Assembly (NCBI GenBank): GCA_039586495.1
Contig: JBDHKG010000020.1
Coordinates: 1,181 to 65,180, forward strand
Reading direction: 5' to 3'
Length of the DNA: 64,000 bases
From: Gemmatimonadota bacterium
GTDB lineage: Bacteria; Gemmatimonadota; Gemmatimonadetes; Palauibacterales; KS3-K002
Under the pieces are notes generated by a model. It was not told the DNA's origin. It saw only the letters and a program-made list of their open reading frames with translations, and made no database searches. Both the position numbers and the translations under genes were made by a program. Position 1 is the stretch's first letter. Each line of letters begins with the position of its first letter. Shown here one piece after another: positions 22,402 to 52,699 of this stretch.

Positions 22402-25400
22402 ATGCTCCGCCGCCTGATCTCCGGGGGTGCGGCCCTGCTGCTCTCCGCTGCCCTGGCCGCGCCGCTCCACGCACAGGTCGATCCCGAGCTGCTGGCCGGC
22501 ATGCGCGCCCGCTCCATCGGGCCCGCCGGGATGAGCGGCCGGATCGGCAGCGTCGACGCAGTCGTCTCGAACCCCAACATCATCTACGTGGGCACCGCGA
22601 CCGGCGGCGTCTGGAAATCGGTGAACGGGGGCGTAAGCTTCGAACCGATCTTCGACGACCAGCCGGTCCATGCCATCGGCGCCGTCCGGGTATTCCAGGC
22701 GAGCCCGGACATCGTTTGGGTGGGTACGGGGGAGGGTAACCCGCGGAACAGTGTGTCGGGCACGGGCTACGGGGTCTTCAAGTCGATGGACGCCGGTCGC
22801 AACTGGACGCACCTGGGTCTCGAGAACACCGAGCGCGTCCACCGGATCGCGCTGCACCCGTCGAACCCTGACATCGCTTACGTCGGCGCGATGGGCTCGA
22901 TGTGGAAGCCGAACCCGGAGCGCGGTGTGTTCAAGACCGAGGACGGTGGCCGGACCTGGCAGAAGATCCTCTATGTCGATGAGAACACGGGCGTCGGCGA
23001 CATGGAGATGGATCCGACGAACCCGAACAAGCTGATCGTGGCGATGTGGGAGTACCGGCGCTGGCCGTGGTTCTTCAAGTCGGGTGGGCCCGGTTCCGGT
23101 CTCTTCCTGACGGTGGACGGCGGCCGCAACTGGACGAAGCTGACGCCGGAGGACGGGCTGCCCGAGGGGGACGTGGGTCGCATCGGTCTGGCGATCGCGC
23201 CGTCGAATCCGAACATCGTCTATGCGCTGACCGAGGCAAGCGAGAACGCGCTGTACAAGTCGGAGGACGGCGGCTACACCTGGAGGAAGATCGACTCTGA
23301 GGGCACGATCGGGAACCGTCCCTTCTACTACTTCGACCTGCGGGTCGATCCCCAGGATCCGAACCGCGTCTACAGTCTCTATTCGCGTGTGGGCTTGTCG
23401 ACGGATGGGGGCAGGAGTTTCCAGGTGCTCGTCCGCGGCGGTGTCCATTCCGACCACCACGCGATGTGGATCAACCCGAACGATCCGTCACACATCATCG
23501 ATGGTAACGATGGCGGCGTGTACATCAGCCGCGATCACGGTCAGACCTGGCGGTTCGTCACGGACCTGCCGCTGGCCCAGTACTACCACATCAACGTGGA
23601 CATGGAGACGCCGTACAACGTGCTCGGCGGCCTGCAGGACAACGGGTCGTGGCGCGGGCCCAGCAGCGTCTGGGAGGACGGCGGGATACGCAATCACCAC
23701 TGGCAGCGGGTCGGCGGCGGCGATGGGTTCGCGACGCTGGCGCTCCCCAGCGACCCGAAGGTGGGCTACTCGATGAGCCAGGGGGGCAACCTGAGGCGCT
23801 GGAACGTTTACAGCGGCGAGTTCAAGGACATCCGGCCGGCACACCCGGATGGTGTCGAGTTGCGCTTCAACTGGAACGCGGCGATCGCCGTTGATCCCTT
23901 CGACCCGAACATCGTCTATTACGGCAGCCAGTTCGTCCACAAGTCGCCCGACATGGGCGAGACGTGGGAGGTCATCAGCCCGGACCTGACGACGAATAAC
24001 CCAGAGCGGCAGAAACAGCAGGAGAGCGGTGGCCTGACCTACGACGTCACCGGCGCCGAGAACTTCACGACGATCATGACGATCGCGCCCAGCCCGGTGG
24101 CGCAGGGCGTCATTTGGGTCGGCACCGATGACGGTCGTGTGCACGTGACCCGGGACGGCGGCGCGACATGGACGAGCGTGGAGCGAAACGTGCGTGGCGT
24201 GCCCGCCAACACCTGGGTACCGCACATCGAGCCATCGAAGTTCGACGCGGCGACGGCGTATGTGGTCTTCGACAACCATCGGCGCGGCGACTTCACGCCG
24301 TACGTCTACGTGACGCGCGATTACGGCCGGCGCTGGAGCAGCCTGGTGAGCGACGACATCTGGGGCTACGCGCTGGTGGTCGAGCAGGACCCGGTGAAGG
24401 AGGACCTGCTGTTCCTGGGGACGGAGTTCGGGCTGTACTCCAGTCTCAATGGTGGCCAGAGCTGGATGAAGTGGACGCACGGGTTCCCGACGGCGTCGGC
24501 GATGGCGCTGATCGTGCACCCGCGTGAGCACGACCTGGTGATCGGCACGCACGGGCGTTCGGTGTACATCATCGACGACATCCGTCCGTTGCGGACGATC
24601 TCGGCGGAGACAATGGCGCAGCCGATTTACCTGTTCGAGATCCCGGATGCCATCCAGTACCAGGAGAATCAATCTGCGGGTGAGGGTTCTCCGGGGCACG
24701 GCGCGTTCCGTGGCGAGAACCGGCCGTACGGTGCGCTGATCACTTTCTCCCTGAACATCGAGGGCCTGCCGCGCGCCAGCGCGCAGCAGCCTCAGCCGGG
24801 AGGGTCCGGGCAAGGGGGGCCGCAAAGGTTCGGGCAAGCGCGGCGCGGGCCGCAGGTGACGGTCGAGATCAGCGACTCGGACGGCGAGCTGATCCGCACC
24901 TTGCGGGCGCCGGCGCGGCTGGGTGTGAACCGGATTGCCTGGAACCTGCGGCGCGACGAGTTCAGGCGCCCGAGGGCCGCCGAAGAGCAGGAGGAGTTCT
25001 TCCGCTTCGGGCGCGGCGGGCCGGACGTGCTGCCCGGCAGCTACGGCGTGAAGATCAAGTACGGCGACCACGAGGCAACGGGTTCGGTGAACGTGCTGGC
25101 CGACCCGCGCTACGACATCACGCTGGCAGAGCGGGAGGAGAAGCTGGCGGCCATCATGTACGCCGGTGCCCTGCAGGAGGTGGTGGCCGACGCGGTCGAG
25201 CGCATCCGGGACACGCGTAGCGAGATCGACGATGTGCTCGAGCGGCTCAGGAGAGCCGAGGAAGAGAGCGGAGACGACGAGCTGCTGCGGGCAGGACGCA
25301 GCCTCAACACGGCGCTGACAGAACTGGAAAAGGAGTTCTGGTCGCCTCCGGGCAGCAGGGGCCAGCGCACTCCCCGGACGGACAACGTGCTCCGGCTGAT

Positions 25401-25614
25401 TGAGAGGGTGTCCAGCTCGCTCGAGTCGTCCTGGGACGCGCCGACGCAGGCCCAGGAGATCAACCTGCGGCAGGCGGAGGCGATGTTACAGGACGCTCTG
25501 GACGAGTTCAACCAAGTCTTCGCCGAGGACGTGGCCGAGTTCATCGACAAGGTGGAGGCAGTGGGGATCAGCTTCGTAAAGTCTACGGAGCCGCTAGCGA
25601 TGCCGCAGCGCTAG
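22402..25614 (+). CDS. Secreted BNR/Asp-box repeat protein (sortilin/VPS10-like, GH74-like beta-propellers), copy 1.
   Basis: 1070 aa. Signal peptide MLRRLISGGAALLLSAALAAPLHAQ. Repeated S-x-D-x-G-x-(T/S)-W motifs ('SMDAGRNWT', 'TEDGGRTWQ', 'TVDGGRNWT', 'SEDGGYTWR', 'TRDGGATWT'). Confidence 0.85.
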   Translation: MLRRLISGGAALLLSAALAAPLHAQVDPELLAGMRARSIGPAGMSGRIGSVDAVVSNPNIIYVGTATGGVWKSVNGGVSFEPIFDDQPVHAIGAVRVFQASPDIVWVGTGEGNPRNSVSGTGYGVFKSMDAGRNWTHLGLENTERVHRIALHPSNPDIAYVGAMGSMWKPNPERGVFKTEDGGRTWQKILYVDENTGVGDMEMDPTNPNKLIVAMWEYRRWPWFFKSGGPGSGLFLTVDGGRNWTKLTPEDGLPEGDVGRIGLAIAPSNPNIVYALTEASENALYKSEDGGYTWRKIDSEGTIGNRPFYYFDLRVDPQDPNRVYSLYSRVGLSTDGGRSFQVLVRGGVHSDHHAMWINPNDPSHIIDGNDGGVYISRDHGQTWRFVTDLPLAQYYHINVDMETPYNVLGGLQDNGSWRGPSSVWEDGGIRNHHWQRVGGGDGFATLALPSDPKVGYSMSQGGNLRRWNVYSGEFKDIRPAHPDGVELRFNWNAAIAVDPFDPNIVYYGSQFVHKSPDMGETWEVISPDLTTNNPERQKQQESGGLTYDVTGAENFTTIMTIAPSPVAQGVIWVGTDDGRVHVTRDGGATWTSVERNVRGVPANTWVPHIEPSKFDAATAYVVFDNHRRGDFTPYVYVTRDYGRRWSSLVSDDIWGYALVVEQDPVKEDLLFLGTEFGLYSSLNGGQSWMKWTHGFPTASAMALIVHPREHDLVIGTHGRSVYIIDDIRPLRTISAETMAQPIYLFEIPDAIQYQENQSAGEGSPGHGAFRGENRPYGALITFSLNIEGLPRASAQQPQPGGSGQGGPQRFGQARRGPQVTVEISDSDGELIRTLRAPARLGVNRIAWNLRRDEFRRPRAAEEQEEFFRFGRGGPDVLPGSYGVKIKYGDHEATGSVNVLADPRYDITLAEREEKLAAIMYAGALQEVVADAVERIRDTRSEIDDVLERLRRAEEESGDDELLRAGRSLNTALTELEKEFWSPPGSRGQRTPRTDNVLRLIERVSSSLESSWDAPTQAQEINLRQAEAMLQDALDEFNQVFAEDVAEFIDKVEAVGISFVKSTEPLAMPQR

Positions 25615-25640
25615 CTACCACGATCATCCGCACGCGAGGA

Positions 25641-25676
25641 GGGCGCCGGGGTCGCCGGCGCCCTCTGTGCTTCTGG
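25641..25676 (+). terminator. Candidate intrinsic terminator after BNR copy 1.
   Basis: 9-bp perfect stem gggcgccgg/ccggcgccc with loop ggtcg, followed by tctgtgcttctgg. Confidence 0.4.
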
Positions 25677-25752
25677 CCGCCCCGGCCGCTGACCCCTAAG
25701 TTGGAACCTGCCCAACCACCGAAACCCTGATCCAAAACTCGGGAGGCTGACC

Positions 25753-28700
25753 ATGCTTCGCCGCCTGATCTCTTCAGGTGCGGCCGCTCTGCTGATCGTT
25801 GCCCTGGCCGCGCCCCTTCACGCTCAGGTCGATCCCGAGCTGCTCGCCGGTATGCAGGCCCGCTCGATTGGGCCCGCCGGCATGAGTGGCCGGATCGCCG
25901 ACGTCGAGGCGGTCGTCTCGAACCCGGACATCGTTTACGTGGGCGCTGCCACCGGCGGCGTGTGGAAGTCGCTGAACGGTGGGCTGACCTTCGAGCCGAT
26001 CTTCGACGATCAGCCGGTCCACGCGATCGGCGACATCGCGATCTTCCAGGCCAGCCCCGACATCGTCTGGGTCGGTACGGGCGAAGGGAACCCCAGGAAC
26101 AGCGTGTCGGTGGGCAACGGCGTCTACAGGTCCCTCGACGGTGGCCGCAGCTGGACCCACCTGGGGCTAGACGAAACGGAGCGCATCCACCGCATCGCGC
26201 TCCACCCGTCTAACCCGGATGTCGCCTACGTGGGGGCGATCGGTAAGGAGTGGGGTGAGAGCCCGGAGCGCGGCCTGTTCAAGACGGAGGACGGCGGCGC
26301 AACCTGGCGGAAGATCCTCTACGTCAACGAGACCACCGGCGTCGGCGACATGGAGATGGACCCGACGAACCCCAACAAGCTGATCGTCGCCATGTGGGAC
26401 TATCGCCGCTGGCCCTGGTTCTTCCGCTCCGGCGGCCCGGGCTCGGGCCTGTACCTGACGGTGGACGGCGGCCGCAACTGGAAGAAGCTGACGCCGGAGG
26501 ACGGGCTGCCCGAGGGTGACCTCGGCCGCATCGGGCTGGCGATCGCGCCGTCGAACCCGAACATCGTCTACGCGCTGATCGAGGCGAAGGAGAACGCGCT
26601 CTACAAGTCGGAGGACGGCGGTTACACCTGGAGGAGGACGGGCGCGCGAGACAACATCGGGAGCCGGCCGTTCTACTACTTCGACCTGCGAGTCGATCCT
26701 CAGGATCCCAACCGGGTCTACAGCCTCTGGTCGCTGGTCAGCGTCTCGAACGACGGCGGCGCGAGCTTCGAGCTCTTGATGACGTGGGATGCGGCGCATC
26801 CCGATCACCATGCCATGTGGATCAGTCCGAACGATCCGACGCTGATCTACGAGGGCAATGACGGCGGCGTCTATGTCAGCCGCGATCGCGGAGAGACGTG
26901 GCGCTTCGTGAGCAACCTGCCGTTCGCCCAGTTCTACCACATCAACGTAACCATGGAGACCCCCTACAACGTGCTTGGCGGTCTGCAGGACAACGGGTCC
27001 TGGCGCGGCCCGAGCGTTGTCTGGGAGAACGGCGGGATCCGCAACCATCACTGGGAGGAGGTAGGCTTCGGCGACGGATTCGCGACGCTGGCCGATCCCA
27101 GTGACCCGATGATCGGCTACGCGATGAGTCAGGAAGGCTTCCTGACGCGTTGGGACCTGCGCACCGGCGAGCGCAAGGACATCCGGCCGGCGCATCCCGA
27201 GGGGATCGAGCTGCGCTTCAACTGGAACGCGGCCATCGCCATCGACCCCTTCGAGCCCAGCACCGTCTACTACGGCAGCAACTGGAACGCGGCCATCGCC
27301 ATCGACCCCTTCGAGCCCAGCACCGTCTACTACGGCAGCCAGTTCGTGCACAAATCCACCGACCGGGGCGACACGTGGGAGATCATCAGCCCGGACCTCA
27401 CCACCAATAATCCCGAGTGGCAGAAGCAGGCGGAGAGCGGCGGCCTGACCCTGGATGTGACGGGCGCCGAGAACTTCACCACGATCATCACGATTGCACC
27501 CAGCCCGGTGGAGCAAGCTGTGATCTGGGTGGGTACGGATGACGGCCGAGTGCAGGTGACCCGCGACGGCGGCGCGACCTGGGAGAGCGTGGAGCGGAAC
27601 ATCCGTGGCGTGCCGGCGAACACGTGGGTGCCGCATATCGAGCCGTCGAAGTTCGATGCGGCGACGGCGTTCGTGGTGTTCGACAACCATCGACGTTCGG
27701 ACTGGACGCCCTATGTCTATGTGACCCACGACTACGGGCGCAGGTGGCGGAGCCTGGCGACGGATGATCTCTGGGGCTACGCGCTGGTGATCGAGCAGGA
27801 TCCGGTGAAGGCGGACCTGCTGTTCCTGGGCACGGAGTTCGGGCTGTACGTGAGCGTGGACGGCGGGAGGGAGTGGCTGAAATGGACGCATGGCGTTCCG
27901 ACCGCCTCGGCGATGGCGCTGATCGTGCACCCGCGGGAGCACGATCTGGTGATCGGGACGCACGGGCGCGCGGCGTACATCCTCGATGACATCCGGCCGT
28001 TACGGTCGCTCACGGCGGAGACACTGGCCCAGCCGATCCACCTGTTCGACATCGCCGACGCGCAGCAGTACATGGTGAAGCAGACCGGCGCCTCGCGCTT
28101 CCCCGGCCACGCTGAGTTCCGCGGCGCGAACCGGCCGTACGGGGCGCTGATCACGTACTCGCTCCACATCGAGGGGTTGCCGCACCCCGACGAGGAGGTC
28201 GAGAGGCAGCGGAAGGCGGCCCAGCGCGAGGCCGGGGCGCCCGAGGAGGAAGCCGCCGGGGAGACCGCGGCGGCCGAGCGCGAGGGCCCGCCCGACCGCG
28301 GTCCCCAGGTCACCATCGAGATCAGCGACGCCGAGGGCGAGGTGATTCGCAGCTTCAAGGGCCCGGCGAAACTGGGGGTCAACCGTGTCGCCTGGGACCT
28401 GCGCCGCGACAGCTTCAGGCGGCCGCGCGGCGACGAGGAGATGTCCTTCTTCGAGCGCGGCGGCCCGGAGGTGCTACCCGGCATCTTCGGTGTACGCATC
28501 AAGTACGGCGAGCACGAGGCGACGGGCCCGGTCACCGTGCTGCCCGATCCGCGTTACGACATCCTGGGCGCCGATCGGGAGGCGAAGTTCGCCGGGATCA
28601 TGCACGCCGGCGCGCTCCGGGAGGTGGCGGCCGAGGCGATCGACCGCATCCAGGACACCCGCGCCGACATCGATGTCGTACTCGACAAGGCCAAGCAGGG

Positions 28701-29085
28701 TGAGGAGGGCGCGGAGAAATCGGCGGCGCGCTCCGAGGAAGAAAGCGCGAACAACGAGTTGATTGAGGCGGCCCGCGAGTTGAAGAAGACGCTCAAGGGG
28801 GTGGAGGAGCGGCTCTGGGTTCCGCCCGGCACCAAAGGCATTGTCGCCGAGACCGCGGTCTACTCGCGCATCGGGTACGTCTTGCGCGCCCTGAGCTCCT
28901 CGTGGGATGCGCCGACGCCGGCGCAGCAGACCTACACGCGTCAGGCGGAGGTGCGGCTCGAAGAGGTCCTTGCCGAGTTCAACCGTGTGTTCGCCGAGGA
29001 CGTGGCCGAGTTCCGGAACAAGGTCGAGGCGGCAGGGATCGAGTTCCTCGGGCCACAGGAGCCTCTGCAGATGCCGGAGCGCTAG
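25753..29085 (+). CDS. Secreted BNR/Asp-box repeat protein, copy 2 (tandem paralog of 22402..25614).
   Basis: 1110 aa, collinear with copy 1 over most of its length. It has an extra Glu/Ala-rich insert at about 28190..28290 and a 20-aa internal duplication. Confidence 0.85.
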   Translation: MLRRLISSGAAALLIVALAAPLHAQVDPELLAGMQARSIGPAGMSGRIADVEAVVSNPDIVYVGAATGGVWKSLNGGLTFEPIFDDQPVHAIGDIAIFQASPDIVWVGTGEGNPRNSVSVGNGVYRSLDGGRSWTHLGLDETERIHRIALHPSNPDVAYVGAIGKEWGESPERGLFKTEDGGATWRKILYVNETTGVGDMEMDPTNPNKLIVAMWDYRRWPWFFRSGGPGSGLYLTVDGGRNWKKLTPEDGLPEGDLGRIGLAIAPSNPNIVYALIEAKENALYKSEDGGYTWRRTGARDNIGSRPFYYFDLRVDPQDPNRVYSLWSLVSVSNDGGASFELLMTWDAAHPDHHAMWISPNDPTLIYEGNDGGVYVSRDRGETWRFVSNLPFAQFYHINVTMETPYNVLGGLQDNGSWRGPSVVWENGGIRNHHWEEVGFGDGFATLADPSDPMIGYAMSQEGFLTRWDLRTGERKDIRPAHPEGIELRFNWNAAIAIDPFEPSTVYYGSNWNAAIAIDPFEPSTVYYGSQFVHKSTDRGDTWEIISPDLTTNNPEWQKQAESGGLTLDVTGAENFTTIITIAPSPVEQAVIWVGTDDGRVQVTRDGGATWESVERNIRGVPANTWVPHIEPSKFDAATAFVVFDNHRRSDWTPYVYVTHDYGRRWRSLATDDLWGYALVIEQDPVKADLLFLGTEFGLYVSVDGGREWLKWTHGVPTASAMALIVHPREHDLVIGTHGRAAYILDDIRPLRSLTAETLAQPIHLFDIADAQQYMVKQTGASRFPGHAEFRGANRPYGALITYSLHIEGLPHPDEEVERQRKAAQREAGAPEEEAAGETAAAEREGPPDRGPQVTIEISDAEGEVIRSFKGPAKLGVNRVAWDLRRDSFRRPRGDEEMSFFERGGPEVLPGIFGVRIKYGEHEATGPVTVLPDPRYDILGADREAKFAGIMHAGALREVAAEAIDRIQDTRADIDVVLDKAKQGEEGAEKSAARSEEESANNELIEAARELKKTLKGVEERLWVPPGTKGIVAETAVYSRIGYVLRALSSSWDAPTPAQQTYTRQAEVRLEEVLAEFNRVFAEDVAEFRNKVEAAGIEFLGPQEPLQMPER
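27219..27339 (+). repeat. Perfect 60-bp tandem duplication (2 units) inside BNR copy 2. It is in-frame and duplicates NWNAAIAIDPFEPSTVYYGS.
   Basis: Unit 27220..27279 is identical to 27280..27339. Copy 1 has this motif once (FNWNAAIAVDPFDPNIVYYGSQFVHKS). Confidence 0.9.
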
Positions 29086-45591: not shown

Positions 45592-45978
45592 ATGGAAGCT
45601 CCACGCGTGCTCATAGTCTCGCCGGACCAGTGGCCCCGGGCGCTGCTGCGGGCGGAGCTGCTGGAGGCCGGATACGATGCGATCGGGGCGCGCACGCTGT
45701 CCGCGTCGCTACGCTACCCCGCCACGCAGCCGGGCCGAGGGCCCGTGAGACTGATTATCGTGGATCAGTGTGTCGTGGAGCGTGAGGCGTCGGAGGTTCG
45801 TGCGCGGCTCGCAGCGAAGCACACCGGGAGTCGGTGGTTTCTTCTTGCACACTCGAGCGGTGTGCTTCCGGCGGGAGACTGGTATGCTGTGCTGCGGCGG
45901 CCGCTGAGCATCGGCCAGGTCGTGGAAGCCGTTAAGCGCGTTCTCCCGATCCCCTACGGTTCCAGCGAATCGGATTGA
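45592..45978 (+). CDS. Possible atypical or pseudo receiver (CheY-like) domain protein.
   Basis: Beta-alpha pattern 'RVLIVSPDQ...', 'VRLIIVDQC', '...FLLAHSSG'. The acidic pocket is incomplete (SPD instead of DD; no conserved Lys). Confidence 0.35.
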   Translation: MEAPRVLIVSPDQWPRALLRAELLEAGYDAIGARTLSASLRYPATQPGRGPVRLIIVDQCVVEREASEVRARLAAKHTGSRWFLLAHSSGVLPAGDWYAVLRRPLSIGQVVEAVKRVLPIPYGSSESD

Positions 45979-47525
45979 GCCGGCGCCGCCCTCGTATCCA
46001 GCGCCTCGGTCGCGGCTGGGGCGTCGGATGTCACCTCAGGGACCTCGCACTCCTGGTTCGCCAAGTAGTCGTACGCTTCCGTCACAGTCTCCCACGCTCT
46101 TGCCCGACCATAGTTCCAGGTTCGCCAAGAGGTCCCTGCCGGCGGCGCCCAACGTTTCAGGATCCGAGCGGCGACCATACAGCGATCGTGGGGGCTCAAT
46201 CCGGGAAGCGCCGACACTACAATCGGGACGGCGTCGGCGCTCAGCGACGTGGCGTACAGCGCGTCGAACTCCTGACCCGTCAGCGCTCGATCGGTGTTCG
46301 TCTTCGCGATCAGTGCGTCCGGGTTCATGATGTTGAGCATCCCAATCAAACAGAATCCCGCGAGCGTGGCACCGGTCACGAAGGGCTGTCTCCAGCCACG
46401 GAGGACGGTGATCGCGAACCAGATCAACACGACGCCGAGCCAGGTCATGAAAGCAGTCGTGTAGAGGCGAAGCTCGGTGAGCCCGTACGCGCCTACGTAC
46501 AGCTGCATGCGCGTTACGGCGGACGTCATGATGACGAAGAGCAGCAGGAGCTGTAGCGCCGCCAGGATTCGAAAGGCGCGCAGGCTCCGGCGATCGGCCT
46601 TCGCCAGCACCCAATCCGCCACGAGCAGCAACGGCAACACGAGCGCGGCGACGGCCACGAGCTCGAAGAACCCGCGGCGCGCGTACTCGGCGTACGTGAG
46701 ACCGACCGTCTGCTCGACCAGCGAAGCGTCACCGAACAGATAGCGGATCTGCACCACCACGAAGACGAGGAAGAGAAAATCGATCAGAGCCAAAGGCACC
46801 GCGATCTCGACGATACCGAGGCCGGGTCGCTCCGGCGCTGCGGCCTCCGTGAAACCGGGCTTGCTGAACCTGAGGATCAGCAGCAGGAAGCCGCACACGG
46901 TCCAGGCGAAGAAGGCTATGAGTGCCGCGTGCGATAGAAGGTTGGCGAGGTCGATGTTCAGGGCGCGCGTCACCAACTGATCGAACACGGCATCGGCTGC
47001 CATCAACAGGCCGCCGAACACGAAGAGCAGCGGAAAAGCGATGAGCAGACCGAGAGCGGCGGAGCGGGCGTGCCGCCAACGCGTGCGGCTCGCCGAACTG
47101 GTCCACGTGATGTCGCTGCGCGCCAACGCCGCGGCACCTACCGCTGCCGCGGTGCCGGAGTTCAGGAGTCCGCGTACGTAGTCCAAGAACCCCCAGCTGC
47201 TAACGGACGTGCCCTCGAGACTGCGGCTCCAGATTGAGATCGCCAGCATCATCGCGAAGGCATCGAAAAACTTCACGGCAGGAGAATCGCGCCAGGCGAA
47301 GCCCGCTGAGAAGATGAGCGCCAGGAATGCGGGCCAGAGCATACCCGGGTTCCATTCGATGCGGTGGCGTGTCGAAAGGATCAGCACGCACACCAACACC
47401 GCCGCCGTCCATACCGGCACGTTGATTCCCCAGGGCAACCCCCGGAGCAGCGCATCGCCCAACACGCCGAGCAGGATCCCGGCGGCCGCTACCTGGAGTG
47501 CGAGCTTAGACTTCGTATCCATCAT
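45954..47525 (-). CDS. Polytopic integral membrane protein (hypothetical; DUF4153/DUF4173-like).
   Basis: 523 aa with at least 12 predicted TM helices. No catalytic motifs recognised. Confidence 0.55.
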   Translation of the reverse strand: MMDTKSKLALQVAAAGILLGVLGDALLRGLPWGINVPVWTAAVLVCVLILSTRHRIEWNPGMLWPAFLALIFSAGFAWRDSPAVKFFDAFAMMLAISIWSRSLEGTSVSSWGFLDYVRGLLNSGTAAAVGAAALARSDITWTSSASRTRWRHARSAALGLLIAFPLLFVFGGLLMAADAVFDQLVTRALNIDLANLLSHAALIAFFAWTVCGFLLLILRFSKPGFTEAAAPERPGLGIVEIAVPLALIDFLFLVFVVVQIRYLFGDASLVEQTVGLTYAEYARRGFFELVAVAALVLPLLLVADWVLAKADRRSLRAFRILAALQLLLLFVIMTSAVTRMQLYVGAYGLTELRLYTTAFMTWLGVVLIWFAITVLRGWRQPFVTGATLAGFCLIGMLNIMNPDALIAKTNTDRALTGQEFDALYATSLSADAVPIVVSALPGLSPHDRCMVAARILKRWAPPAGTSWRTWNYGRARAWETVTEAYDYLANQECEVPEVTSDAPAATEALDTRAAPAQSDSLEP

Positions 47526-47534
47526 TCGCTTCCT

Positions 47535-47903
47535 CTATTCACCGCGCATCACGCGGATGAGATCCTCCATGTCATCCAGATAGCACTCGAGGGCTCGGCG
47601 GCCCGTCTCGGTCAGTCGGTACTCCGTCTTGGGCACCCTTCCTTCGAACGACTTCGTGCAGGCGACGTAACCCGCCTCCTCGAGTTTCCGTGCGTGCACG
47701 CTGAGGTTGCCGTCCGTGATTTCGAGGAGACCTTTCAGATCGCTGAAGGTCAGCGACTCGTTCACGGCGAGTGCGCTCATGATGCCGAGTCGGACCCGCT
47801 GATGGATGAGGCGATCGAGCTCCGGCGTGGCGCTGCTTGAGGCTCGCCCGGGCGGACGACCCGCTGGACTTCCCACGTCTGACGAACCCCGTCGCCTGTT
47901 CAT
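47535..47903 (-). CDS. Winged-helix (HTH_34-type) transcriptional regulator.
   Basis: 'LDRLIHQRVRLGIMSALAVNESLTFSDLKGLLEITDGNLSVHARKLEEAGYVACTKSFEGRVPKTEYRLTETGRRALECYL'. The start is uncertain: the ORF extends to 47975 and would then overlap the upstream gene. Candidate starts are M25 (47903) and M16 (47930). Confidence 0.65.
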   Translation of the reverse strand: MNRRRGSSDVGSPAGRPPGRASSSATPELDRLIHQRVRLGIMSALAVNESLTFSDLKGLLEITDGNLSVHARKLEEAGYVACTKSFEGRVPKTEYRLTETGRRALECYLDDMEDLIRVMRGE

Positions 47904-47919
47904 CGTCGAGGAGCCGCCG

Positions 47920-48531
47920 CTAGCCACCATACCTGCGGGCGATGATGGCGCCGAAGACGACATTGATCCCGCCAAAACCAGCCGCCATGAACGCGTTGCC
48001 CCATGCCGCTGGGGCGAGAAAAGCCCCGAGGCCCACCAGCATGAAGCAGACCCCCATGATCGGGACGGCTCTCACGGAGAACGCGCCGCCCGTCGTGACG
48101 CCCGTGCCATATAACAACAGCCAGGTGCCCGGCATGGCGTCGAAGAGGCGCGCCGAATAGAGGACCGCCGTGAGCACAGCGCCAGCGACCAGGGGAGGGC
48201 AGAGGCCGAAGACGAAGCGTGCGCCGGCGCCGCGCAGCAGCGGCGCCTTGACGGCTCTGGCTTTGAGAGCCATTGCGACGGCCCCGATGGCGATCGCCAG
48301 GGCAGCCTCGGCGAGCCAGGTGAGGAGCCAGGCGCTGGGGGTCATCTGGCGCGCGGCCAGTGCGGCGGCGGCGAACGCGGTCAGGCCGATGGCCAGGGTG
48401 CCCCACCCGGGGACGGCGGTGAAGGAGCTGGCGCGCGCCATGGTGTCGCGAATGAAGCGGAGGTCATCGAGGGCGCGGGACCGGGTGGGGGAGTGGCCGT
48501 TGCACTGGGGTTGAGAGCGTTCGTTGTTCAT
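47920..48531 (-). CDS. Integral membrane protein (hypothetical), probable partner of the wHTH regulator.
   Basis: 203 aa with five or six TM helices. No recognisable motifs. Confidence 0.5.
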
Positions 48532-48597
48532 GAGGGCTCAAAATAGGGGGTGGGGTTGGTGTTGTCAAGTACTTTGCATTGTAAAGGAGATAGGGGG

Positions 48598-48626
48598 TTG
48601 CGCACTCACGGTCTTCGGTTTATATT
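48598..48626 (+). promoter_or_regulatory. Candidate sigma70-type promoter (TTGCGC-17-TATATT) upstream of dnaE2.
   Basis: -35 TTGCGC at 48598..48603, a 17-nt spacer, then -10 TATATT at 48621..48626, in an AT-richer island. A palindrome AAGTACTT (48567..48574) and the CTTT-N7-AAAG dyad lie just upstream. Confidence 0.35.
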
Positions 48627-48638
48627 CGGTATCCCAGG

Positions 48639-48713
48639 GCGGAGGGGTGACCCACTCCCCCTACCTGCGAAGTGCCCCTCCGCTCTGGACCCACCTTGCG
48701 GTGGGCTTTTTTG
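48639..48713 (+). terminator. Leader or small-RNA-like structure: a 9-bp hairpin plus a canonical intrinsic terminator 39 nt upstream of the dnaE2 ATG.
   Basis: Hairpin 1 is gcggagggg (48639..48647) paired with cccctccgc (48675..48683). The terminator has stem cccacc (48690..48695), loop ttgc and stem ggtggg (48700..48705), then cttttttg (48706..48713). Confidence 0.55.
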
Positions 48714-48751
48714 TCGCCAGGGCTTACGGGCTTTATTCGGGACACTGGTTT

Positions 48752-51700
48752 ATGCCCTCATACGCCGAGCTCCACTGTCACTCCGCCTTCTCCCTCCTCG
48801 ACGGCGCCTCCACGCCGGAAGTCCTGGTTCGACGGGCGGTGGAGCTCGGCATCCGCGCCCTGGCGCTCACCGACCACGACGACCTGGGCGGCGCGGTGCG
48901 CTTCAGCCGGGCGGCCCGGGAGGCGGGATTGGAGGCGATCGTGGGGGCTGAGCTCACGATCGTGCCGCCGGAGGACGCTGCCGGTCCTCCCAACCATCTC
49001 ACGCTGCTGGCGCGGACCGCCGAGGGCTACGCGAACCTCTCGGAGCTGGTGACGCGGGGACGGTCGGGCACGGCGGGAACCCTCGCTTCATGTCGCGCGA
49101 CACGGGTTGGGATGTGTGACGGGCCACCGCGCTCCAAATGTCCGCTCGCGGCTCCCGCCGTGCCCTCCCTGTCGCGGAAAGGAGCCCGCCCCGAATCAAC
49201 TTCGAGAGTCCCCATCACGAACAGCTGGGCGCCGGACAGGGGGCGCCCACGGGTGACCTGGGAGGACCTGGCGGAGCTGGGATCCGGGCTCTTCGCCCTC
49301 ACGGGCTGTCCGCAAGGCGAGCTGGCCCGGCGGGTGCGGGCGGGCGATGGGAAGGGGACGCGGGAGCTGCTCGATTTCCTGCGGAGCGCCTTCCACGGCT
49401 ACTTGGCCGTGGAAGTCTGGGATCATGCGTTGCCGGAGGAACGGGCGCTGGCGGATCGCTTGCTGGAGCTGGCGGACCGCCAGGGGCTGCCGGCGGTGGC
49501 GACCAACGATGTGCACTATGCGCTGCCGTCGGGCCGAATCGTCCACGATCTGCTCACCTGCCTGCGCCATCAGGTGACGCTGGATGAGGCGGGCAGGCGG
49601 CTGCGCCCCAACGGCGAGTGGCATCTGAAGCCGTCCTCGGTGGTGTGGCGGCGCTGGCGCCAGCGGCCCGACGTGGTGGAGAACACCCACGGCGTCGCCG
49701 CCGAGTGTTCTTTCCGCTTGGCGGACCTCTCGCCGGCGATGCCGGGGTTCCAGGTGCCGCCCGGCGTGACGACGCAGGAGTATCTGGAGCGGTTGGTCTG
49801 GCGGGGTGCGCTGGAGCGCTACGGTGGGGCAGGGCAGGTGCGGAACGGCGATCCGATCTGCATTTCCGCTCCTGTGGAGGAGGGAGGAGTCGGGGAGATC
49901 GTCTCGCTCCACCGCTCGCAGCCTCCTGCGCCGCCCCCGGATCTCCAGCGCGGCCGCACGGTTGAGCGCGAGCCGCCGACCACCCCACCGGCCCTTGCAA
50001 AGGAAGTACTGCGGCCTGGCCGAGGCACGTCCAGGCACTTGAGCGAGGCGGGTCAAATCTGGAACAGTGACTCGAGTGGCGTGGTCGTTCCGACTAGGGA
50101 TGGGGCGCCGGATGGGTCGTCGAGCGTAACTCGCGAGCGGTGGAGCGAGATGATCCCACCGGCGCCCCGTCTAAACGGCGGCTCGGGTCTCAGGCAGCGA
50201 GTGCGTCGCCAGATCCGCCACGAACTCGAGGTGATCAAGCGCTTGGACCTGGCCGGGTACTTCCTCACCGTCTGGGACATCGTCCGCTTCGCCCGGCGCC
50301 AAGGGATCCTGTTGCAGGGACGCGGCTCGGCCGCCAACTCCTGCGTCTGCTACTGCCTGGGGATCACGGCGGTGGATCCCATCAAGTTCGAGCTGTTGTT
50401 CGAGCGCTTCCTCTCGGAGGAGCGGGGCGGCGCGCCCGACATCGATCTCGACATCGAGCACGAGCAGCGCGAGGAGGTGCTCCAGTACGTCTACCGCAAG
50501 TACGGCCGCGAGCGGGCGGCGATGGTCTGCGAGACGATCACCTATCGCGGCCGCTCCGCGGTGCGCGATGCCGCCCGCGTGCTCGGCTTTTCCACCGATG
50601 TGGCCGATCGACTGGCGGCGGAAGTGGAGCGCTGCGAAGCGGTAGAGGCGGCCGATGTGCTGGAGAACGGCGGACTGGCCGCCTGCGGGCTCGATCCGCG
50701 GGACCGTCGTGTCGCGGCGCTGGTCCACGTGGTGCGCGGGCTCGACCAACTACCGCGTCACCGCTCCATCCATGTAGGCGGCTTCGTCCTCACCGCGAGC
50801 CCACTCTCCCTGGTCGTCCCCATCGAGCCGGCGGCGATGCCGGAGCGCACCGTCATCCAGTGGGACAAGGACGACCTCGACTTCGTGGGCCTCATCAAGA
50901 TCGATCTGTTGGGCCTGGGGATGCTTACCTGCCTGGCGAAGGCGATCCGCTACATCCGCGAGACGCGCGGTGTGGCCATCGACCTGGCCCAGCTGCCGGC
51001 GGGCGACCCCGAGGTCTACCGGATGATCCAGCAGGCGGACACGGTAGGCGTCTTCCAGATCGAGAGCCGGGCGCAGATGAACTCGCTGCCGCGCTTGAAA
51101 CCCGGGGATTTCTACGATCTGGTCGTCCAGGTGGCGCTCATCCGGCCGGGCCCCATCCAGGGCGAGATGGTGCACCCCTATGTGCGGCGGCGGCGCGGCG
51201 AGGAGCCGGTGACGTATCTGCATCCGGATCTTGAGCCGATCCTCAAGCGGACGCTGGGCGTGCCGCTCTTCCAGGAGCAGGGGATGAAGGTCGCGGTGGC
51301 GATGGCGAACTTCACGCCGGGCCAGGCGGACGCATTGCGCCGGGCGATGGGGTTCAAGCGCTCGAGGGAGGCGATGGCGCTGATCGAGCCGGCGCTACGG
51401 GCGGGGATGACGGCGCGCGGGATCACCACAGACGTGCAGGATCAGATCGTCAAGCAGCTCACCGCCTTCGCCAACTACGGTTTTCCGGAGAGCCATGCGG
51501 CGTCATTCGCGCTCCTGGTCTACGCCTCGGCGTATCTCAAGCGCTACTACGCGCCCGAGTTCTACTGCGCGCTGCTCAACGCGCAACCGATGGGGTTCTA
51601 CGCGCCGGGGACGCTCGTTCATGATGCACGTCGCCACGGGGTCGAGATGCGGCCCGTCGATCTCGCGTACTCGAGCTGGGACTGCACGCTCGAACCCGGC

Positions 51701-52699
51701 ATCGAGGAAGACGGGGTGCGGCAGGGTCGTCTCGCTTCATGTCGCGCGGCACCGTGCCGATGTCGAAGGACCGGCGGGGGCGCTCCAAATGTCCGCTCAA
51801 CGACACCTGCCGCACCCCTGGACTCCGGGGACACGGCAGGAGATCCTCGAGCGGCCTTGTCACCACGAAAGGGAGGGCACGGCACCGACCCACGAGCGGA
51901 CATTTGGAGCGCCCCGGCCCGTCTCGTACACGTGCCCGAGTCGCGCGACATGAAGCGAGGGGTCGGTGCCGTGCCCGACCGGCCGGCTCTGCGGATCGGA
52001 CTGCGCTATGTGCGCGGGCTGGGCTCGAAGGCGGAGGAGAAGCTCAAGGCGGCATGGGAGGCCGGGGGACGTTTCCGGTCGGTGGAGGATGTGGTGCGGC
52101 GGTCGGGCCTCGGCCTCCCCTCCCTCAAGACGCTGGCGGAGGCCGGCGCCTTCCGGACGCTCTGGGGGCCGGGCCGGCGCTCCGCCCTCTGGGAGATGCT
52201 GGCGAAGCTCGCCCAGCGGCCACTGGCGCCGGTGGATTCGGCGCCTCATCCGTACCCGCACCCGAAACTGAAGGAGATGACCCGGGTCGAGTTCATCGCC
52301 GCCGATTACCTGACCACCGGACTCTGCACCCACGGGCATCCCATGGAGCACCTGCGGGCAACACTGCGCGCTCACGGTGTGGTCTCGGCCGAGGAGCTCA
52401 AGCGGGTCCGCAGCGGTCAGCGAGTGAAGGTGGCTGGCGTGGTGATCTGCCGGCAGCGGCCGGGCACCGCCAAAGGCGTGTGCTTCATCACTCTGGAGGA
52501 TGAGACCGGGTTCTCCAACTTCGTGGTCTACGCCGACCTGTTTCAGCGCTACCGCCGCACCATCGTCCGCTCACCGGTGCTCTTGATCGAGGGGATCGCC
52601 CAGCACGAGCAGGACGTGATCAACGTGCAGGCACGGCGGATCACCGCGATCGAGCCGACCGCGGGCGCCGACGTCATCGAGAGCCACGACTTTCACTGA
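48752..52699 (+). CDS. dnaE2: Error-prone DNA polymerase III alpha-subunit homolog (DnaE2/ImuC type), lengthened by three in-frame palindromic-element insertions.
   Basis: Starts MPSYAELHCHSAFSLLDGAS, the PHP domain. The polymerase core includes 'GFVLTASPL...IDLLGLGMLT...GVFQIESRAQM', and the OB-fold tail is 'VKVAGVVICRQRPGTAKGVCFITLEDETG'. The ORF-track start at 48524 is probably too long. Confidence 0.85.
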   Translation: MPSYAELHCHSAFSLLDGASTPEVLVRRAVELGIRALALTDHDDLGGAVRFSRAAREAGLEAIVGAELTIVPPEDAAGPPNHLTLLARTAEGYANLSELVTRGRSGTAGTLASCRATRVGMCDGPPRSKCPLAAPAVPSLSRKGARPESTSRVPITNSWAPDRGRPRVTWEDLAELGSGLFALTGCPQGELARRVRAGDGKGTRELLDFLRSAFHGYLAVEVWDHALPEERALADRLLELADRQGLPAVATNDVHYALPSGRIVHDLLTCLRHQVTLDEAGRRLRPNGEWHLKPSSVVWRRWRQRPDVVENTHGVAAECSFRLADLSPAMPGFQVPPGVTTQEYLERLVWRGALERYGGAGQVRNGDPICISAPVEEGGVGEIVSLHRSQPPAPPPDLQRGRTVEREPPTTPPALAKEVLRPGRGTSRHLSEAGQIWNSDSSGVVVPTRDGAPDGSSSVTRERWSEMIPPAPRLNGGSGLRQRVRRQIRHELEVIKRLDLAGYFLTVWDIVRFARRQGILLQGRGSAANSCVCYCLGITAVDPIKFELLFERFLSEERGGAPDIDLDIEHEQREEVLQYVYRKYGRERAAMVCETITYRGRSAVRDAARVLGFSTDVADRLAAEVERCEAVEAADVLENGGLAACGLDPRDRRVAALVHVVRGLDQLPRHRSIHVGGFVLTASPLSLVVPIEPAAMPERTVIQWDKDDLDFVGLIKIDLLGLGMLTCLAKAIRYIRETRGVAIDLAQLPAGDPEVYRMIQQADTVGVFQIESRAQMNSLPRLKPGDFYDLVVQVALIRPGPIQGEMVHPYVRRRRGEEPVTYLHPDLEPILKRTLGVPLFQEQGMKVAVAMANFTPGQADALRRAMGFKRSREAMALIEPALRAGMTARGITTDVQDQIVKQLTAFANYGFPESHAASFALLVYASAYLKRYYAPEFYCALLNAQPMGFYAPGTLVHDARRHGVEMRPVDLAYSSWDCTLEPGIEEDGVRQGRLASCRAAPCRCRRTGGGAPNVRSTTPAAPLDSGDTAGDPRAALSPRKGGHGTDPRADIWSAPARLVHVPESRDMKRGVGAVPDRPALRIGLRYVRGLGSKAEEKLKAAWEAGGRFRSVEDVVRRSGLGLPSLKTLAEAGAFRTLWGPGRRSALWEMLAKLAQRPLAPVDSAPHPYPHPKLKEMTRVEFIAADYLTTGLCTHGHPMEHLRATLRAHGVVSAEELKRVRSGQRVKVAGVVICRQRPGTAKGVCFITLEDETGFSNFVVYADLFQRYRRTIVRSPVLLIEGIAQHEQDVINVQARRITAIEPTAGADVIESHDFH
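49082..49180 (-). repeat. Truncated copy of palindromic MITE-like element family 1, inverted relative to the 51731 copy, inside dnaE2 and in-frame.
   Basis: The 18-bp terminus ctcgcttcatgtcgcgcg (49082..49099) is identical to 51731..51748. The inner box gcgctccaaatgtccgctc (49129..49147) is identical to the inner repeat of the full copy. ccgtgccctccc (49158..49169) is the reverse complement of gggagggcacgg in the full copy. The second half is missing. Confidence 0.7.
49897..50153 (+). mobile_element. Palindromic MITE-like element family 2 (~257 bp) inside dnaE2, in-frame.
   Basis: The terminal inverted repeats atcgtctcgctccaccgctcgc (49897..49918) and gcgagcggtggagcgagatgat (50132..50153) match at 21 of 22 positions. 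The element encodes a low-complexity ~90-aa Pro/Gly/Ser-rich insert ('...SLHRSQPPAPPPDLQRGRTVEREPPTTPPALAKE...') absent from typical DnaE2. Confidence 0.6.
51731..51959 (+). mobile_element. Full-length palindromic MITE-like element family 1 (229 bp, nested inverted repeats) inside dnaE2, in-frame.
   Basis: The outer TIRs are ctcgcttcatgtcgcgcg (51731..51748) and cgcgcgacatgaagcgag (51942..51959), an 18/18 match. The inner inverted repeats are ggggcgctccaaatgtccgctc (51778..51799) and gagcggacatttggagcgcccc (51894..51915), a 22/22 match. The central part has a further cctgccg...cggcagg dyad. The element encodes '...LASCRAAPCRCRRTGGGAPNVRSTTPAAPLDSGDTAGDPRAALSPRKGGHGTDPRADIWSAPARLVHVPESRDMKRG...' between the conserved DnaE2 segments 'SSWDCTLEPG' and 'PALRIGLRYVRGLG'. 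Confidence 0.75.

What the first reader, a model, noticed from the sequence alone, without database searches (positions are those of the whole stretch)
48560..48751. Promoter, hairpin and intrinsic terminator package immediately upstream of dnaE2 (attenuator or small RNA?)
A good sigma70-like promoter (TTGCGC-17-TATATT) is followed by a 9-bp perfect hairpin (gcggagggg...cccctccgc) and then a canonical terminator (cccacc-ttgc-ggtggg plus cttttttg) that ends 39 nt before the dnaE2 ATG.

If transcription starts here it would mostly stop before dnaE2. That implies read-through control (attenuation or a riboregulator) or an independent ~80-nt sRNA. dnaE2 is normally in a LexA-controlled imuA-imuB-dnaE2 cassette, but here it stands alone, divergent from a wHTH regulator and membrane-protein pair. 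Palindromes AAGTACTT and CTTT-N7-AAAG just upstream could be an operator.
Basis: partly seen in the sequence, partly recalled or inferred. Interest (0 to 1): 0.6.

Follow-up and report, generated by a model that had tools for sequence, protein, structure and literature searches.

The report
Conserved terminated leader RNA before dnaE2

Summary
Window 48598-48751 holds a promoter (TTGCGC-17-TATATT), a 16-bp hairpin with a 23-nt C-rich loop (48634-48688), an intrinsic terminator (48690-48712), and then dnaE2 39 nt later.

The same package lies directly upstream of dnaE2 in 17 other distinct Gemmatimonadota sequences. It stays there when the upstream neighbour differs. A metagenome pattern scan and a covariance model found it nowhere else. 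Rfam has no match.

Box 1 overlaps the -10; box 2 lies before the ATG. The same repeat precedes imuA in four Gemmatimonadota imuA-imuB-dnaE2 cassettes. So this lone dnaE2 probably keeps the cassette's SOS-type control. LexA binding is inferred, not tested.

All 18 leaders fold alike. None has an alternative antiterminator fold or a leader peptide, and none has a sigma70-like promoter between terminator and start codon.

Best reading (~0.5): damage-controlled P1 makes a terminated ~80-nt RNA, and dnaE2 is expressed by read-through. Main rival (~0.3): an independent SOS small RNA plus a separate dnaE2 promoter.

This is a new RNA family of a known kind, of moderate interest.

The parts
48598..48603 (+). 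-35 element of promoter P1 (TTGCGC)
   Evidence: TTGC is invariant, and the 17-nt spacing to TATATT is kept in all 18 leaders. It matches the consensus in only 3 of 6 positions, so the scan does not call it.
48614..48630 (+). Box 1: direct repeat TTCGGT-TTATA-TTCGGT, the putative SOS-type operator. It encloses the -10 hexamer TATATT (48621-48626).
   Evidence: This is the only exact match in the 64-kb window. Among the first 80 loci it matches only upstream of dnaE2, in L001, L007 and L065. The relaxed form also occurs upstream of imuA in L010, L104, L107 and L108. The spacer is always TATATT in the RNA-bearing clade.
48633..48712 (+). Predicted ~80-nt leader / small RNA. The transcription start is inferred at about 48631-48634, and the 3' end lies in the T run.
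   Evidence: Covariance model R1 scores 79-113 bits in 18 sequences, and nothing comparable is found elsewhere in about 0.9 Mb. Rfam has no family for it. The start and end are inferred, not measured.
48634..48688 (+). Hairpin P1. The 16-bp stem pairs 48634-48649 with 48673-48688. The 23-nt C-rich loop (48650-48672) has the core ACCCACUCC.
   Evidence: Fold. 95% of cells are paired across 18 sequences. Compensatory changes occur at three pairs, including A.U to C.G in L110. G.U/G.C alternation occurs only in the sense of the + strand. The 5' strand CCC(A)GGGCGGAGG and the loop core CCCACT are invariant.
48690..48712 (+). Intrinsic terminator: CCCACC-UUGC-GGUGGG followed by C and then U6.
   Evidence: Called by the scan. 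It is present in all 18. The stem is rebuilt differently in some (GCUCCC/GGGAGC in L085, an 8-bp stem in L099) and loops vary.
48711..48718 (+). Conserved block TTGTCGCC, overlapping the end of the T run. Function unknown.
   Evidence: TTTTTGTCG is invariant in all 18. As a -35 it would sit only 15 nt from the A/T-rich spacer of box 2, and no -10 with A2/T6 follows it.
48725..48741 (+). Box 2: TACGGG-CTTTA-TTCGGG, a second, weaker copy of the operator, 10 nt before the ATG.
   Evidence: Found by the relaxed box scan in the window and all nine RNA-clade loci then held, and seen in the leaders fetched afterwards. It is conserved in 17 of 18 leaders and degenerate in L110. It resembles the imuA box TTCGGGTTTTATTCGGT.
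48752..52699 (+). dnaE2 (error-prone DNA polymerase, 1315 aa). No Shine-Dalgarno sequence precedes it.
   Evidence: NCBIfam NF004225 at 1253 bits, plus Pfam PHP, DNA_pol3_alpha and finger domains. The upstream 20 nt have no GGAG/GAGG and are not conserved.
48540..48586 (-). Not part of the dnaE2 package: promoter of the divergent operon (TTGACA 48568-48563, TATTTT 48545-48540, ATG 8 nt later) and the palindromes AAGTACTT / CTTT-N7-AAAG (48567-48586).
   Evidence: Promoter scan, 10 of 12 matches. The block co-occurs with the 203-aa/wHTH/DUF4153 operon and is absent where the neighbour differs.

Best explanation
**Model.** The region is a damage-regulon-controlled promoter followed by a constitutively terminated leader, with these steps:
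- A repressor binds the direct repeat TTCGG-N6-TTCGG. It is most likely the SOS repressor LexA, because the same repeat guards imuA-imuB-dnaE2 cassettes elsewhere in the phylum.
- Box 1 encloses the -10 hexamer of P1, so binding shuts the promoter.
- When the repressor is lost, RNA polymerase starts at about 48631-48634.
- It transcribes a very stable 5'-terminal hairpin with a conserved C-rich loop, then reaches a canonical intrinsic terminator.
- Most transcripts end there as an ~80-nt RNA.
- A minority read through into dnaE2, which has no recognisable promoter or Shine-Dalgarno sequence of its own.
- Box 2, just before the ATG, gives the repressor a second site on the read-through path.

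**Net effect.** The mutagenic polymerase is made only when the regulon is induced, and then only at a low, terminator-capped level. The abundant short RNA may additionally act in trans through its anti-Shine-Dalgarno-like loop.

**Shown:**
- the anatomy;
- conservation, strand and structure of the RNA;
- exclusive linkage to dnaE2;
- sharing of the box with imuA cassettes;
- absence of an alternative fold.

**Inferred:**
- promoter use;
- termination efficiency and read-through;
- identity of the repressor;
- any trans function.
For: 1. **Conservation and linkage.**
- All nine close DnaE2 relatives examined with upstream DNA, and the more distant L110, carry the package.
- All 15 hits of a context-free metagenome pattern scan lie directly upstream of dnaE2.
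- The package stays with dnaE2 when the upstream gene is an SDR (L087) or UPF0182 (L088).
- CM R1 finds one copy per locus at 79-113 bits and nothing else.

2. **RNA on the + strand.**
- 95% of cells are paired.
- Three pairs carry compensatory changes.
- G.U to G.C changes would be A-C mismatches on the other strand.
- The terminator stem is rebuilt in L085 and L099.

3. **Operator.** T[TA]CGG-N6-TTCGG occurs 25 times in 817 kb. 24 of these are upstream of dnaE2 or imuA. It is perfect upstream of imuA in L010, L104, L107 and L108. The cassette is a core SOS operon (PMC4951493).

4. **No separate dnaE2 promoter.** No hexamer with A2/T6 lies between terminator and start in any of the 18. Nothing is called there in the window or in L110. 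L110 has lost box 2 but keeps P1, the hairpin and the terminator.

5. **Constitutive terminator.** In all 18, the terminator's 5' half is unpaired when the RNA is truncated before the 3' half. No leader ORF is conserved.

6. **A terminator-less variant exists.** L098 is a natural variant with a 27-nt deletion of the hairpin's 3' strand and the terminator stem, so P1 is fused to dnaE2.
Against: - No transcript data exist. The start site, the 3' end and the read-through fraction are all unmeasured.
- The -35 of P1 is weak by consensus (3 of 6).
- Box 2 and the invariant TTGTCGCC are conserved in 17 of 18 leaders. That would be natural if they were a separate, non-canonical dnaE2 promoter-operator.
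- Nucleotide-level invariance of the loop and of the 5' strand exceeds what a simple terminator brake needs. It points to a specific partner, RNA or protein, that this model does not name.
- LexA binding is untested. No lexA or recA promoter from this phylum could be examined.
- Covariation is modest because the sequences are close relatives.
Confidence: 0.5

Rival explanations
1. There are two separate transcription units. The first is an independent ~80-nt trans-acting small RNA gene: P1, box 1, hairpin, terminator. Immediately downstream, dnaE2 has its own weak or non-canonical promoter with box 2 as its operator. Both are induced together. The sRNA acts through its C-rich, anti-Shine-Dalgarno-like loop on other mRNAs.
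For: - The architecture is typical of a base-pairing sRNA: its own promoter, a 5' hairpin, a conserved single-stranded loop core ACCCACUCC, and a terminator with a U tail.
- Box 2 and TTGTCGCC are conserved in 17 of 18 leaders.
- In relatives without the RNA, the box sits at or right next to the gene's promoter. In L007 the box abuts the ATG.
- Leaderless or short-leader starts seem to be used here. The divergent gene's ATG lies 8 nt after its -10.
Against: - No hexamer with the key -10 positions (A2, T6) exists between terminator and ATG in any of the 18 sequences.
- TTGTCG would be only 15 nt from the A/T-rich spacer.
- L110 has lost box 2 yet keeps the rest.
- The box 2 to ATG distance varies from 7 to 12 nt, which does not fit a strict leaderless start.
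- The RNA is never found away from dnaE2.
- No convincing target was found in the window, although that scan has little power.
Confidence: 0.3
2. The leader is a conditional, factor-dependent attenuator. A protein or a trans RNA recognises the invariant loop or stem of the hairpin and changes how often the adjacent terminator works. One possibility is pairing of loop CCCAC/CUCCC with the terminator's 3' half. Under this model dnaE2 needs both promoter induction and a second signal.
For: - The loop core and the 5' strand are invariant at nucleotide level, beyond what structure needs.
- The hairpin is only 1-3 nt from the terminator.
- The terminator's 3' half can pair with the loop in every sequence. 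This is GGUGGG in most sequences, and GGGAG in L085 and GGGGG in L001, where the stem changed. This is read from the sequences.
Against: - No RNA-intrinsic alternative fold exists. The hairpin is about -30 kcal/mol, and the terminator's 5' half is free in all 18 truncated folds.
- The loop is so C-rich that complementarity to any G-rich terminator arm is expected by chance.
- There is no Rfam match, no ligand-pocket-like architecture and no candidate factor.
Confidence: 0.13
3. The inverted repeat works only at the DNA level, as a protein-binding palindrome or cruciform. Alternatively, the package is an unused relic with no RNA function.
For: - The stem arms are nearly invariant in sequence, as protein-binding half-sites would be.
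- The minus strand folds at least as stably in silico.
Against: - G.U pairs alternate with G.C in the + sense at four stem positions. On the minus strand, or as a DNA palindrome, these would be mismatches.
- Compensatory changes keep pairing intact.
- The T run, the promoter and dnaE2 are all co-oriented.
- The terminator stem is rebuilt with a different sequence.
- Conservation at or above synonymous sites argues against a relic.
Confidence: 0.05

Closest known systems
Intrinsic-terminator 5' leaders that release short RNAs by premature termination (attenuators; riboswitch-derived sRNAs such as Listeria SreA/SreB, cited from my own knowledge)
   Same: The order is the same: promoter, structured leader, Rho-independent terminator, then the regulated gene on the same strand. 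The short terminated product can act as an sRNA.
   Different: There is no alternative antiterminator fold, no leader peptide and no ligand-type architecture. There is no Rfam match. Termination looks constitutive unless a trans factor intervenes.
LexA/SOS-controlled small RNAs (DinR of Klebsiella, PMC10907235; the IstR-2/tisAB locus of E. coli, PMC2577331)
   Same: A small RNA is placed under the DNA-damage regulon, next to an SOS gene.
   Different: From my own knowledge, not re-read here: DinR is processed from the dinI 3' UTR, and IstR is an antitoxin RNA. Here the RNA is the 5' leader of a translesion polymerase gene. There is no sequence similarity, and SOS control here is inferred.
Direct-repeat LexA box of Alphaproteobacteria, GTTC-N7-GTTC (PMC4951493, PMC8565304)
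   Same: It is a direct, not inverted, repeat with an 11-bp period. It shares the TTC core and sits in the promoters of the imuA-imuB-dnaE2 mutagenesis genes.
   Different: The half-site here is T(T/A)CGG rather than GTTC. The phylum is different. LexA binding, and presence at the lexA and recA promoters, have not been tested.
Split imuA-imuB / dnaE2 mutagenesis cassette under LexA (PMC3919608, PMC4951493)
   Same: dnaE2 is separated from imuA-imuB yet carries the same operator as intact cassettes of the phylum.
   Different: I know of no described cassette with a conserved hairpin plus terminator between operator and dnaE2. None was found in the paper library.
C-rich-loop sRNAs that pair with Shine-Dalgarno regions (RsaE/RoxS type, cited from my own knowledge)
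   Same: An exposed, conserved C-rich loop (CUCCCCC; CCUCCUU in L085 and L095) is complementary to GGAGG-type ribosome-binding sites.
   Different: There is no homology. Targets are unknown, and the trans function is untested.

Membership tests
Rho-independent (intrinsic) terminator | GC-rich stem, short loop, and a U run immediately 3' of the stem on the transcribed strand | tested here: met
   6-bp stem with 5 G-C pairs, a 4-nt loop, then C plus T6. Kept in all 18 relatives with compensatory rebuilding.
Rho-independent (intrinsic) terminator | Transcripts actually end in the U run | not testable with these tools
   Needs term-seq, 3'-RACE or in vitro transcription.
Sigma70-type promoter (P1) | -35 and -10 hexamers close to consensus, 16-18 nt apart, with A2 and T6 in the -10 | tested here: inconclusive
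   TATATT matches 5 of 6 with A2/T6, and the spacer is 17 nt. But TTGCGC matches only 3 of 6, so the scan does not call it. TTGC, the spacing and TATATT are invariant in 18 sequences.
SOS (LexA) operator | The same motif occurs in the promoters of several core SOS operons of the clade (imuA-imuB-dnaE2, lexA, recA) | tested here: inconclusive
   Met for dnaE2 (18 leaders plus L007 and L065) and for imuA (L010, L104, L107, L108). lexA and recA promoters of the phylum could not be obtained. tblastn found lexA only in loci from other phyla.
SOS (LexA) operator | Matches a described LexA-binding motif | tested here: not met
   T(T/A)CGG-N6-TTCGG is none of the motifs quoted in the passages retrieved from PMC8565304 and PMC4951493. 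The nearest in form is GTTC-N7-GTTC.
SOS (LexA) operator | Specific binding by the organism's LexA, and de-repression on DNA damage | not testable with these tools
   Needs EMSA or footprinting, and expression data.
Riboswitch or other curated cis-regulatory RNA (Rfam) | Match to a curated covariance model | tested here: not met
   No hit at gathering thresholds in the whole window. At E up to 10, only chance-level miRNA, RNAI and EBER hits appear.
Riboswitch / classical attenuator | Mutually exclusive terminator and antiterminator folds | tested here: not met
   In all 18 leaders the terminator's 5' half is unpaired in the fold truncated before the 3' half. The only other structure is the about -30 kcal/mol hairpin.
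Leader-peptide (trp-type) attenuator | A conserved short ORF in the leader whose translation controls the fold | tested here: not met
   There is no ATG in the leader. GTG/TTG positions are not conserved. Leader RNA segments are 92-95 nt long, and these differences are not multiples of 3.
Trans-acting base-pairing sRNA | Own promoter, terminator with U tail, and a conserved accessible seed | tested here: met
   The loop core ACCCACUCC is invariant and unpaired.
Trans-acting base-pairing sRNA | Identified target mRNAs with conserved complementarity, or chaperone binding | tested here: inconclusive
   A duplex scan of 40 translation-initiation regions in the window gave nothing specific. The whole genomes were not available.

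The most novel reading that the evidence does not exclude
Two undescribed things may sit here together.

1. A new SOS/LexA operator type for the phylum Gemmatimonadota: the direct repeat T(T/A)CGG-N6-TTCGG with an 11-bp period.
2. A dedicated RNA checkpoint on the mutagenic polymerase. This would be either a damage-induced small RNA whose anti-Shine-Dalgarno-like loop regulates other mRNAs, or a factor-gated terminator that makes dnaE2 expression depend on a second signal besides repressor loss.
Probability: 0.3. Interest if true: 0.7.

Novelty: new member of a known kind. Interest (0 to 1): 0.55.

Why it matters
DnaE2 drives damage-induced mutagenesis and so contributes to adaptive and drug-resistance mutations. 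Its known control is transcriptional, by LexA.

A conserved terminator and structured RNA between operator and gene would be an extra post-initiation layer limiting a mutator enzyme. It gives a concrete, testable RNA of 18 sequences with a covariance model.

The shared direct repeat upstream of dnaE2 and imuA also provides the first candidate SOS operator for Gemmatimonadota. No LexA motif for this phylum turned up in the literature searched. With it, the phylum's damage regulon could be reconstructed by genome scanning.

Tried and rejected
- **Rfam.** Gathering thresholds on the whole window, and permissive thresholds on 48450-48850: nothing meaningful. No tRNA or tmRNA.
- **Repeat family or mobile element.** Rejected. 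The stem sequence is not repeated in the window. CM R1 finds no other copy in the window or in more than 100 loci.
- **Terminator of a neighbouring gene.** Rejected. The upstream gene is divergent. On the minus strand the hairpin is not followed by a U run.
- **N-terminal extension of DnaE2.** The frame is open back to 48524 and an in-frame GTG lies at 48647. Rejected because the GTG is not conserved, the leaders differ by indels that are not multiples of 3, and MPSYAELHCHS is the conserved N-terminus.
Rejected, see above.
- **Separate sigma70 promoter P2 between terminator and ATG.** Not found.
- **Antiterminator fold or leader peptide.** Not found.
- **Homology of the hairpin's 5' strand to the imuA 5' UTR.** L104 has TTCGGTATCCAGTGGGAGGGGATCGGTG. 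The resemblance is seen in only one of four cassettes, so I treat it as a hint at most.
- **Target search for the loop within the window.** Uninformative.
- **Literature searches** for a Gemmatimonadota LexA motif, a dnaE2 leader RNA or sRNA: nothing found.

Full report
**1. What is in the sequence**

The 220-nt gap between a divergent 203-aa ORF (47920-48531, minus strand) and dnaE2 (ATG at 48752) holds, on the + strand:
- TTGCGC at 48598-48603, a 17-nt spacer, and TATATT at 48621-48626.
- A hairpin whose 16-bp stem pairs 48634-48649 with 48673-48688 around a 23-nt C-rich loop.
- One unpaired base, then CCCACC-TTGC-GGTGGG (48690-48705), a C, and T6 (48707-48712).
- 39 nt further on, the ATG.

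The 88-nt stretch 48628-48715 folds at -43.4 kcal/mol (z = -3.2). dnaE2 is confirmed by NCBIfam (error-prone polymerase, 1253 bits) and Pfam. The neighbours are a membrane-like 203-aa protein, an HTH_34 winged-helix regulator and a DUF4153 protein.

- The hairpin is longer than stated.
- The -35 is weak by consensus (3 of 6), so the consensus scan does not call this promoter.

**2. It is conserved and tied to dnaE2**

The window comes from a Gemmatimonadota lineage; all close DnaE2 relatives are from that phylum.
- I fetched the DNA around nine close relatives (73-90% identical) and one more distant relative (P0014, 67%). Every one has the same package directly upstream of dnaE2.
- I ran a context-free scan of the metagenome collection for the 5' stem plus loop core, CCAGGGCGGAGGG-N3-7-CCCACTCC. 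It gave 15 hits. All lie directly upstream of a dnaE2 start of the form M-x-x-Y-A/V/S-E-L-H-C-H-S.
- That makes 18 distinct leader sequences in all.
- The package stays with dnaE2 when the upstream gene is an SDR (L087) or UPF0182 (L088).
- A covariance model built from the alignment scores the 18 at 79-113 bits. The only intermediate hit is the L098 deletion variant (39 bits). It finds nothing convincing elsewhere in the window or in about 0.9 Mb of other loci.
- For the 12 leaders measured, identity to the window is 75-92%. That is equal to or above third-codon-position identity (64-92%) in the most conserved 66 codons of dnaE2.
- More distant Gemmatimonadota dnaE2 loci (L007, L008, L010, L017, L065) lack the RNA.

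**3. It is an RNA structure on the + strand**

Across the 18 sequences, 95% of cells are paired in the two helices, against 42-60% when partners are slid.
- Three pairs carry changes on both sides: A.U to C.G in the lower stem of L110; A.U, G.C and C.G at the top of the stem; A.U to C.G in the terminator.
- Four stem positions alternate between G.U and G.C. On the opposite strand these would be A-C mismatches.
- The terminator stem is rebuilt as GCUCCC/GGGAGC in L085 and extended to 8 bp in L099. Its loops vary.
- Covariation is modest because the sequences are close. The evidence is conservation plus thermodynamics plus a few compensatory events.
- The 5' strand CCC(A)GGGCGGAGG and the loop core ACCCACUCC are invariant at nucleotide level. 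That is more than structure alone requires.

**4.

The -10 hexamer sits inside a direct repeat, TTCGGT-TTATA-TTCGGT (48614-48630; box 1).
- It is the only exact match in the window.
- Among the first 80 loci it occurs only upstream of dnaE2 in Gemmatimonadota: L001, L007 and L065.
- A relaxed form, T[TA]CGG-N6-TTCGG, occurs 25 times in 817 kb. Of these, 24 are upstream of dnaE2 or imuA.
- Each RNA-bearing locus then in hand has a second copy, TACGG-N6-TTCGG (box 2, window 48725-41), 7-12 nt before the start codon. The later-fetched leaders show it too, except L110.
- In L010 the box lies about 20 nt upstream of a RecA-like ImuA gene, followed by ImuB and dnaE2.
- Three more cassettes, fetched through ImuA homologues (L104, L107, L108), all have a perfect TTCGGGTTTT[GC]TTCGGT. 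In each it sits between a TTGCC-17-TATCAT-type promoter and imuA.

The imuA-imuB-dnaE2 cassette belongs to the minimal SOS core regulated by LexA across phyla. A direct-repeat LexA box with the same 11-bp period, GTTC-N7-GTTC, is known in Alphaproteobacteria (PMC4951493, PMC8565304). I therefore infer that the box is the phylum's SOS operator. This remains an inference:
- No lexA or recA promoter of the phylum could be examined.
- The motif is none of the LexA motifs quoted in the passages I retrieved.

- It abuts the -35 of that operon's minus-strand promoter: TTGACA-17-TATTTT, 10 of 12 matches, with the ATG 8 nt after the -10.
- It is present only when that operon is the neighbour (L001, L081-L086, L095, L110).
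- It is absent from L087, L088, L089, L091, L092 and L099.
- In L081 an insertion of about 250 nt separates it from the dnaE2 package.

**5. How it most likely works**

All 18 leaders fold into the same two hairpins, at -37 to -48 kcal/mol.
- When each RNA is truncated just before the terminator's 3' half, the 5' half is unpaired in every case. So there is no built-in antiterminator.
- There is no ATG in the leader and no conserved start codon. The leader RNA segments are 92-95 nt long, which excludes a leader peptide.
- Rfam has nothing.
- Riboswitch-type and trp-type attenuation are therefore not supported. The terminator should act constitutively unless a trans factor intervenes.

Between the terminator and the start codon, no hexamer has the key -10 positions A2 and T6 in any of the 18 sequences.
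- The promoters I can recognise in this phylum all have them: TATATT, TATCAT, TATTAT and TATTTT.
- The invariant TTGTCG would be only 15 nt from the A/T-rich spacer of box 2.
- L110 has lost box 2 yet keeps P1, box 1, the hairpin and the terminator.
- dnaE2 has no Shine-Dalgarno sequence, although about half of the window's genes do.
- A natural variant, L098, has a 27-nt deletion that removes the hairpin's 3' strand and the terminator stem and joins P1 to dnaE2.

From this I favour, at about 0.5, a single promoter P1 under the box repressor. Most transcripts stop as an ~80-nt RNA with a protective 5'-terminal hairpin. A fraction reads through to give dnaE2 mRNA, and box 2 acts as a second repressor site on that path.

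Two rivals remain:
- The main rival (about 0.3) is an independent SOS small RNA plus a non-canonical dnaE2 promoter at box 2. It is favoured by the conservation of box 2 and TTGTCGCC and by the sRNA-like build.
- A factor-gated terminator (about 0.13) would explain the invariant loop. The loop can pair with the terminator's 3' half in every sequence. But the loop is so C-rich that this is expected by chance.

A purely DNA-level role or an unused relic is unlikely (about 0.05), because of the G.U pattern, the compensatory changes and the conservation.

**6. Comparison with known systems, and novelty**

By mechanism this is a terminated 5' leader, an sRNA, or both. That is a known kind. As a family it is new:
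- There is no Rfam match.
- The searched literature holds no report of a leader RNA or terminator between an SOS operator and dnaE2.

The direct-repeat box is a candidate new SOS operator for a phylum in which the literature I searched describes none. It resembles the alphaproteobacterial motif in form only.

I rate the finding as a new member of a known kind, of moderate interest (0.55). Interest would be higher if the RNA proves to be a second checkpoint on mutagenesis, or if the box proves to be a LexA site.

**7. Limits**
- Everything about transcription, termination, read-through, repressor identity and trans function is inferred from sequence.
- The relatives are close, so covariation statistics are weak.
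I could not examine lexA or recA promoters or whole genomes of the clade.

Noticed in passing
window 48752-52699 (about residues 104-165, 360-465 and 990-1065 of DnaE2): This DnaE2 is 1315 aa, about 250 aa longer than usual. Three low-complexity R/P/S/G-rich insertions are absent or much shorter in P0027 (1068 aa). Their length varies even among close relatives (1150-1322 aa). They show no intein-like features on inspection. Their significance is unknown.
   Followed up: partly
L098 313-378 (metagenome contig Ga0111181_1101): A natural variant of the leader has a 27-nt deletion. It removes the hairpin's 3' strand and the terminator stem but keeps P1, box 1, the T run and box 2. In effect it is a terminator-less fusion of P1 to dnaE2. 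Its closest intact relatives are L082 and L103. It could be a real allele or an assembly artefact.
   Followed up: partly
window 48532-48586 and 45954-48531 (minus strand): The divergent operon (203-aa membrane-like protein, HTH_34 winged-helix regulator, DUF4153 protein) has a strong promoter, TTGACA-17-TATTTT. The ATG lies only 8 nt after the -10, so the mRNA is probably leaderless. A conserved palindrome, AAGTACTTTGCA..TAAAG, sits just upstream of the -35 and is likely the regulator's own operator. The operon and this block are syntenic with dnaE2 in most but not all relatives.
   Followed up: partly
L104 3930-4000, L107 3930-4000, L108 150-216, L010 760-840: In intact Gemmatimonadota imuA-imuB-dnaE2 cassettes, the TTCGGGTTTTnTTCGGT box lies downstream of a TTGCC-17-TATCAT/TATTAT promoter, at about +1 to +20. 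It is followed by a GGAGG-type ribosome-binding site. In L104 the sequence after the box (ATCCAGTGGGAGGGG) resembles the 5' strand of the window's hairpin.
   Followed up: partly
L081 2480-2860: In the closest relative (DnaE2 90% identical), the intergenic region is 520 nt instead of 220 nt. An extra block of about 250 nt lies between the divergent-operon block and P1. It contains a hairpin plus T run (GGGAGGAGGTCC...GGACCTCCTCTTTTG).
   Followed up: no
window 12095-22351 and 2374-5568, 22402-29085: Four neighbouring genes (12095, 14434, 16435, 19985) begin with nearly the same N-terminal motif (..ELKRRRVYRVAVVYAAVAFVIW). Two tandem ~1070-1110-aa genes (22402, 25753) share an almost identical signal-peptide start. 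A third, ~1064-aa gene (2374-5568, minus strand) has an N-terminus of similar character. These look like local paralogue families. They were not annotated.
   Followed up: no
window 48524-48751: The dnaE2 reading frame stays open 228 nt upstream of the true ATG, right through the leader RNA, and an in-frame GTG lies at 48647. Automatic gene callers could therefore annotate a false N-terminal extension that hides the leader.
   Followed up: yes
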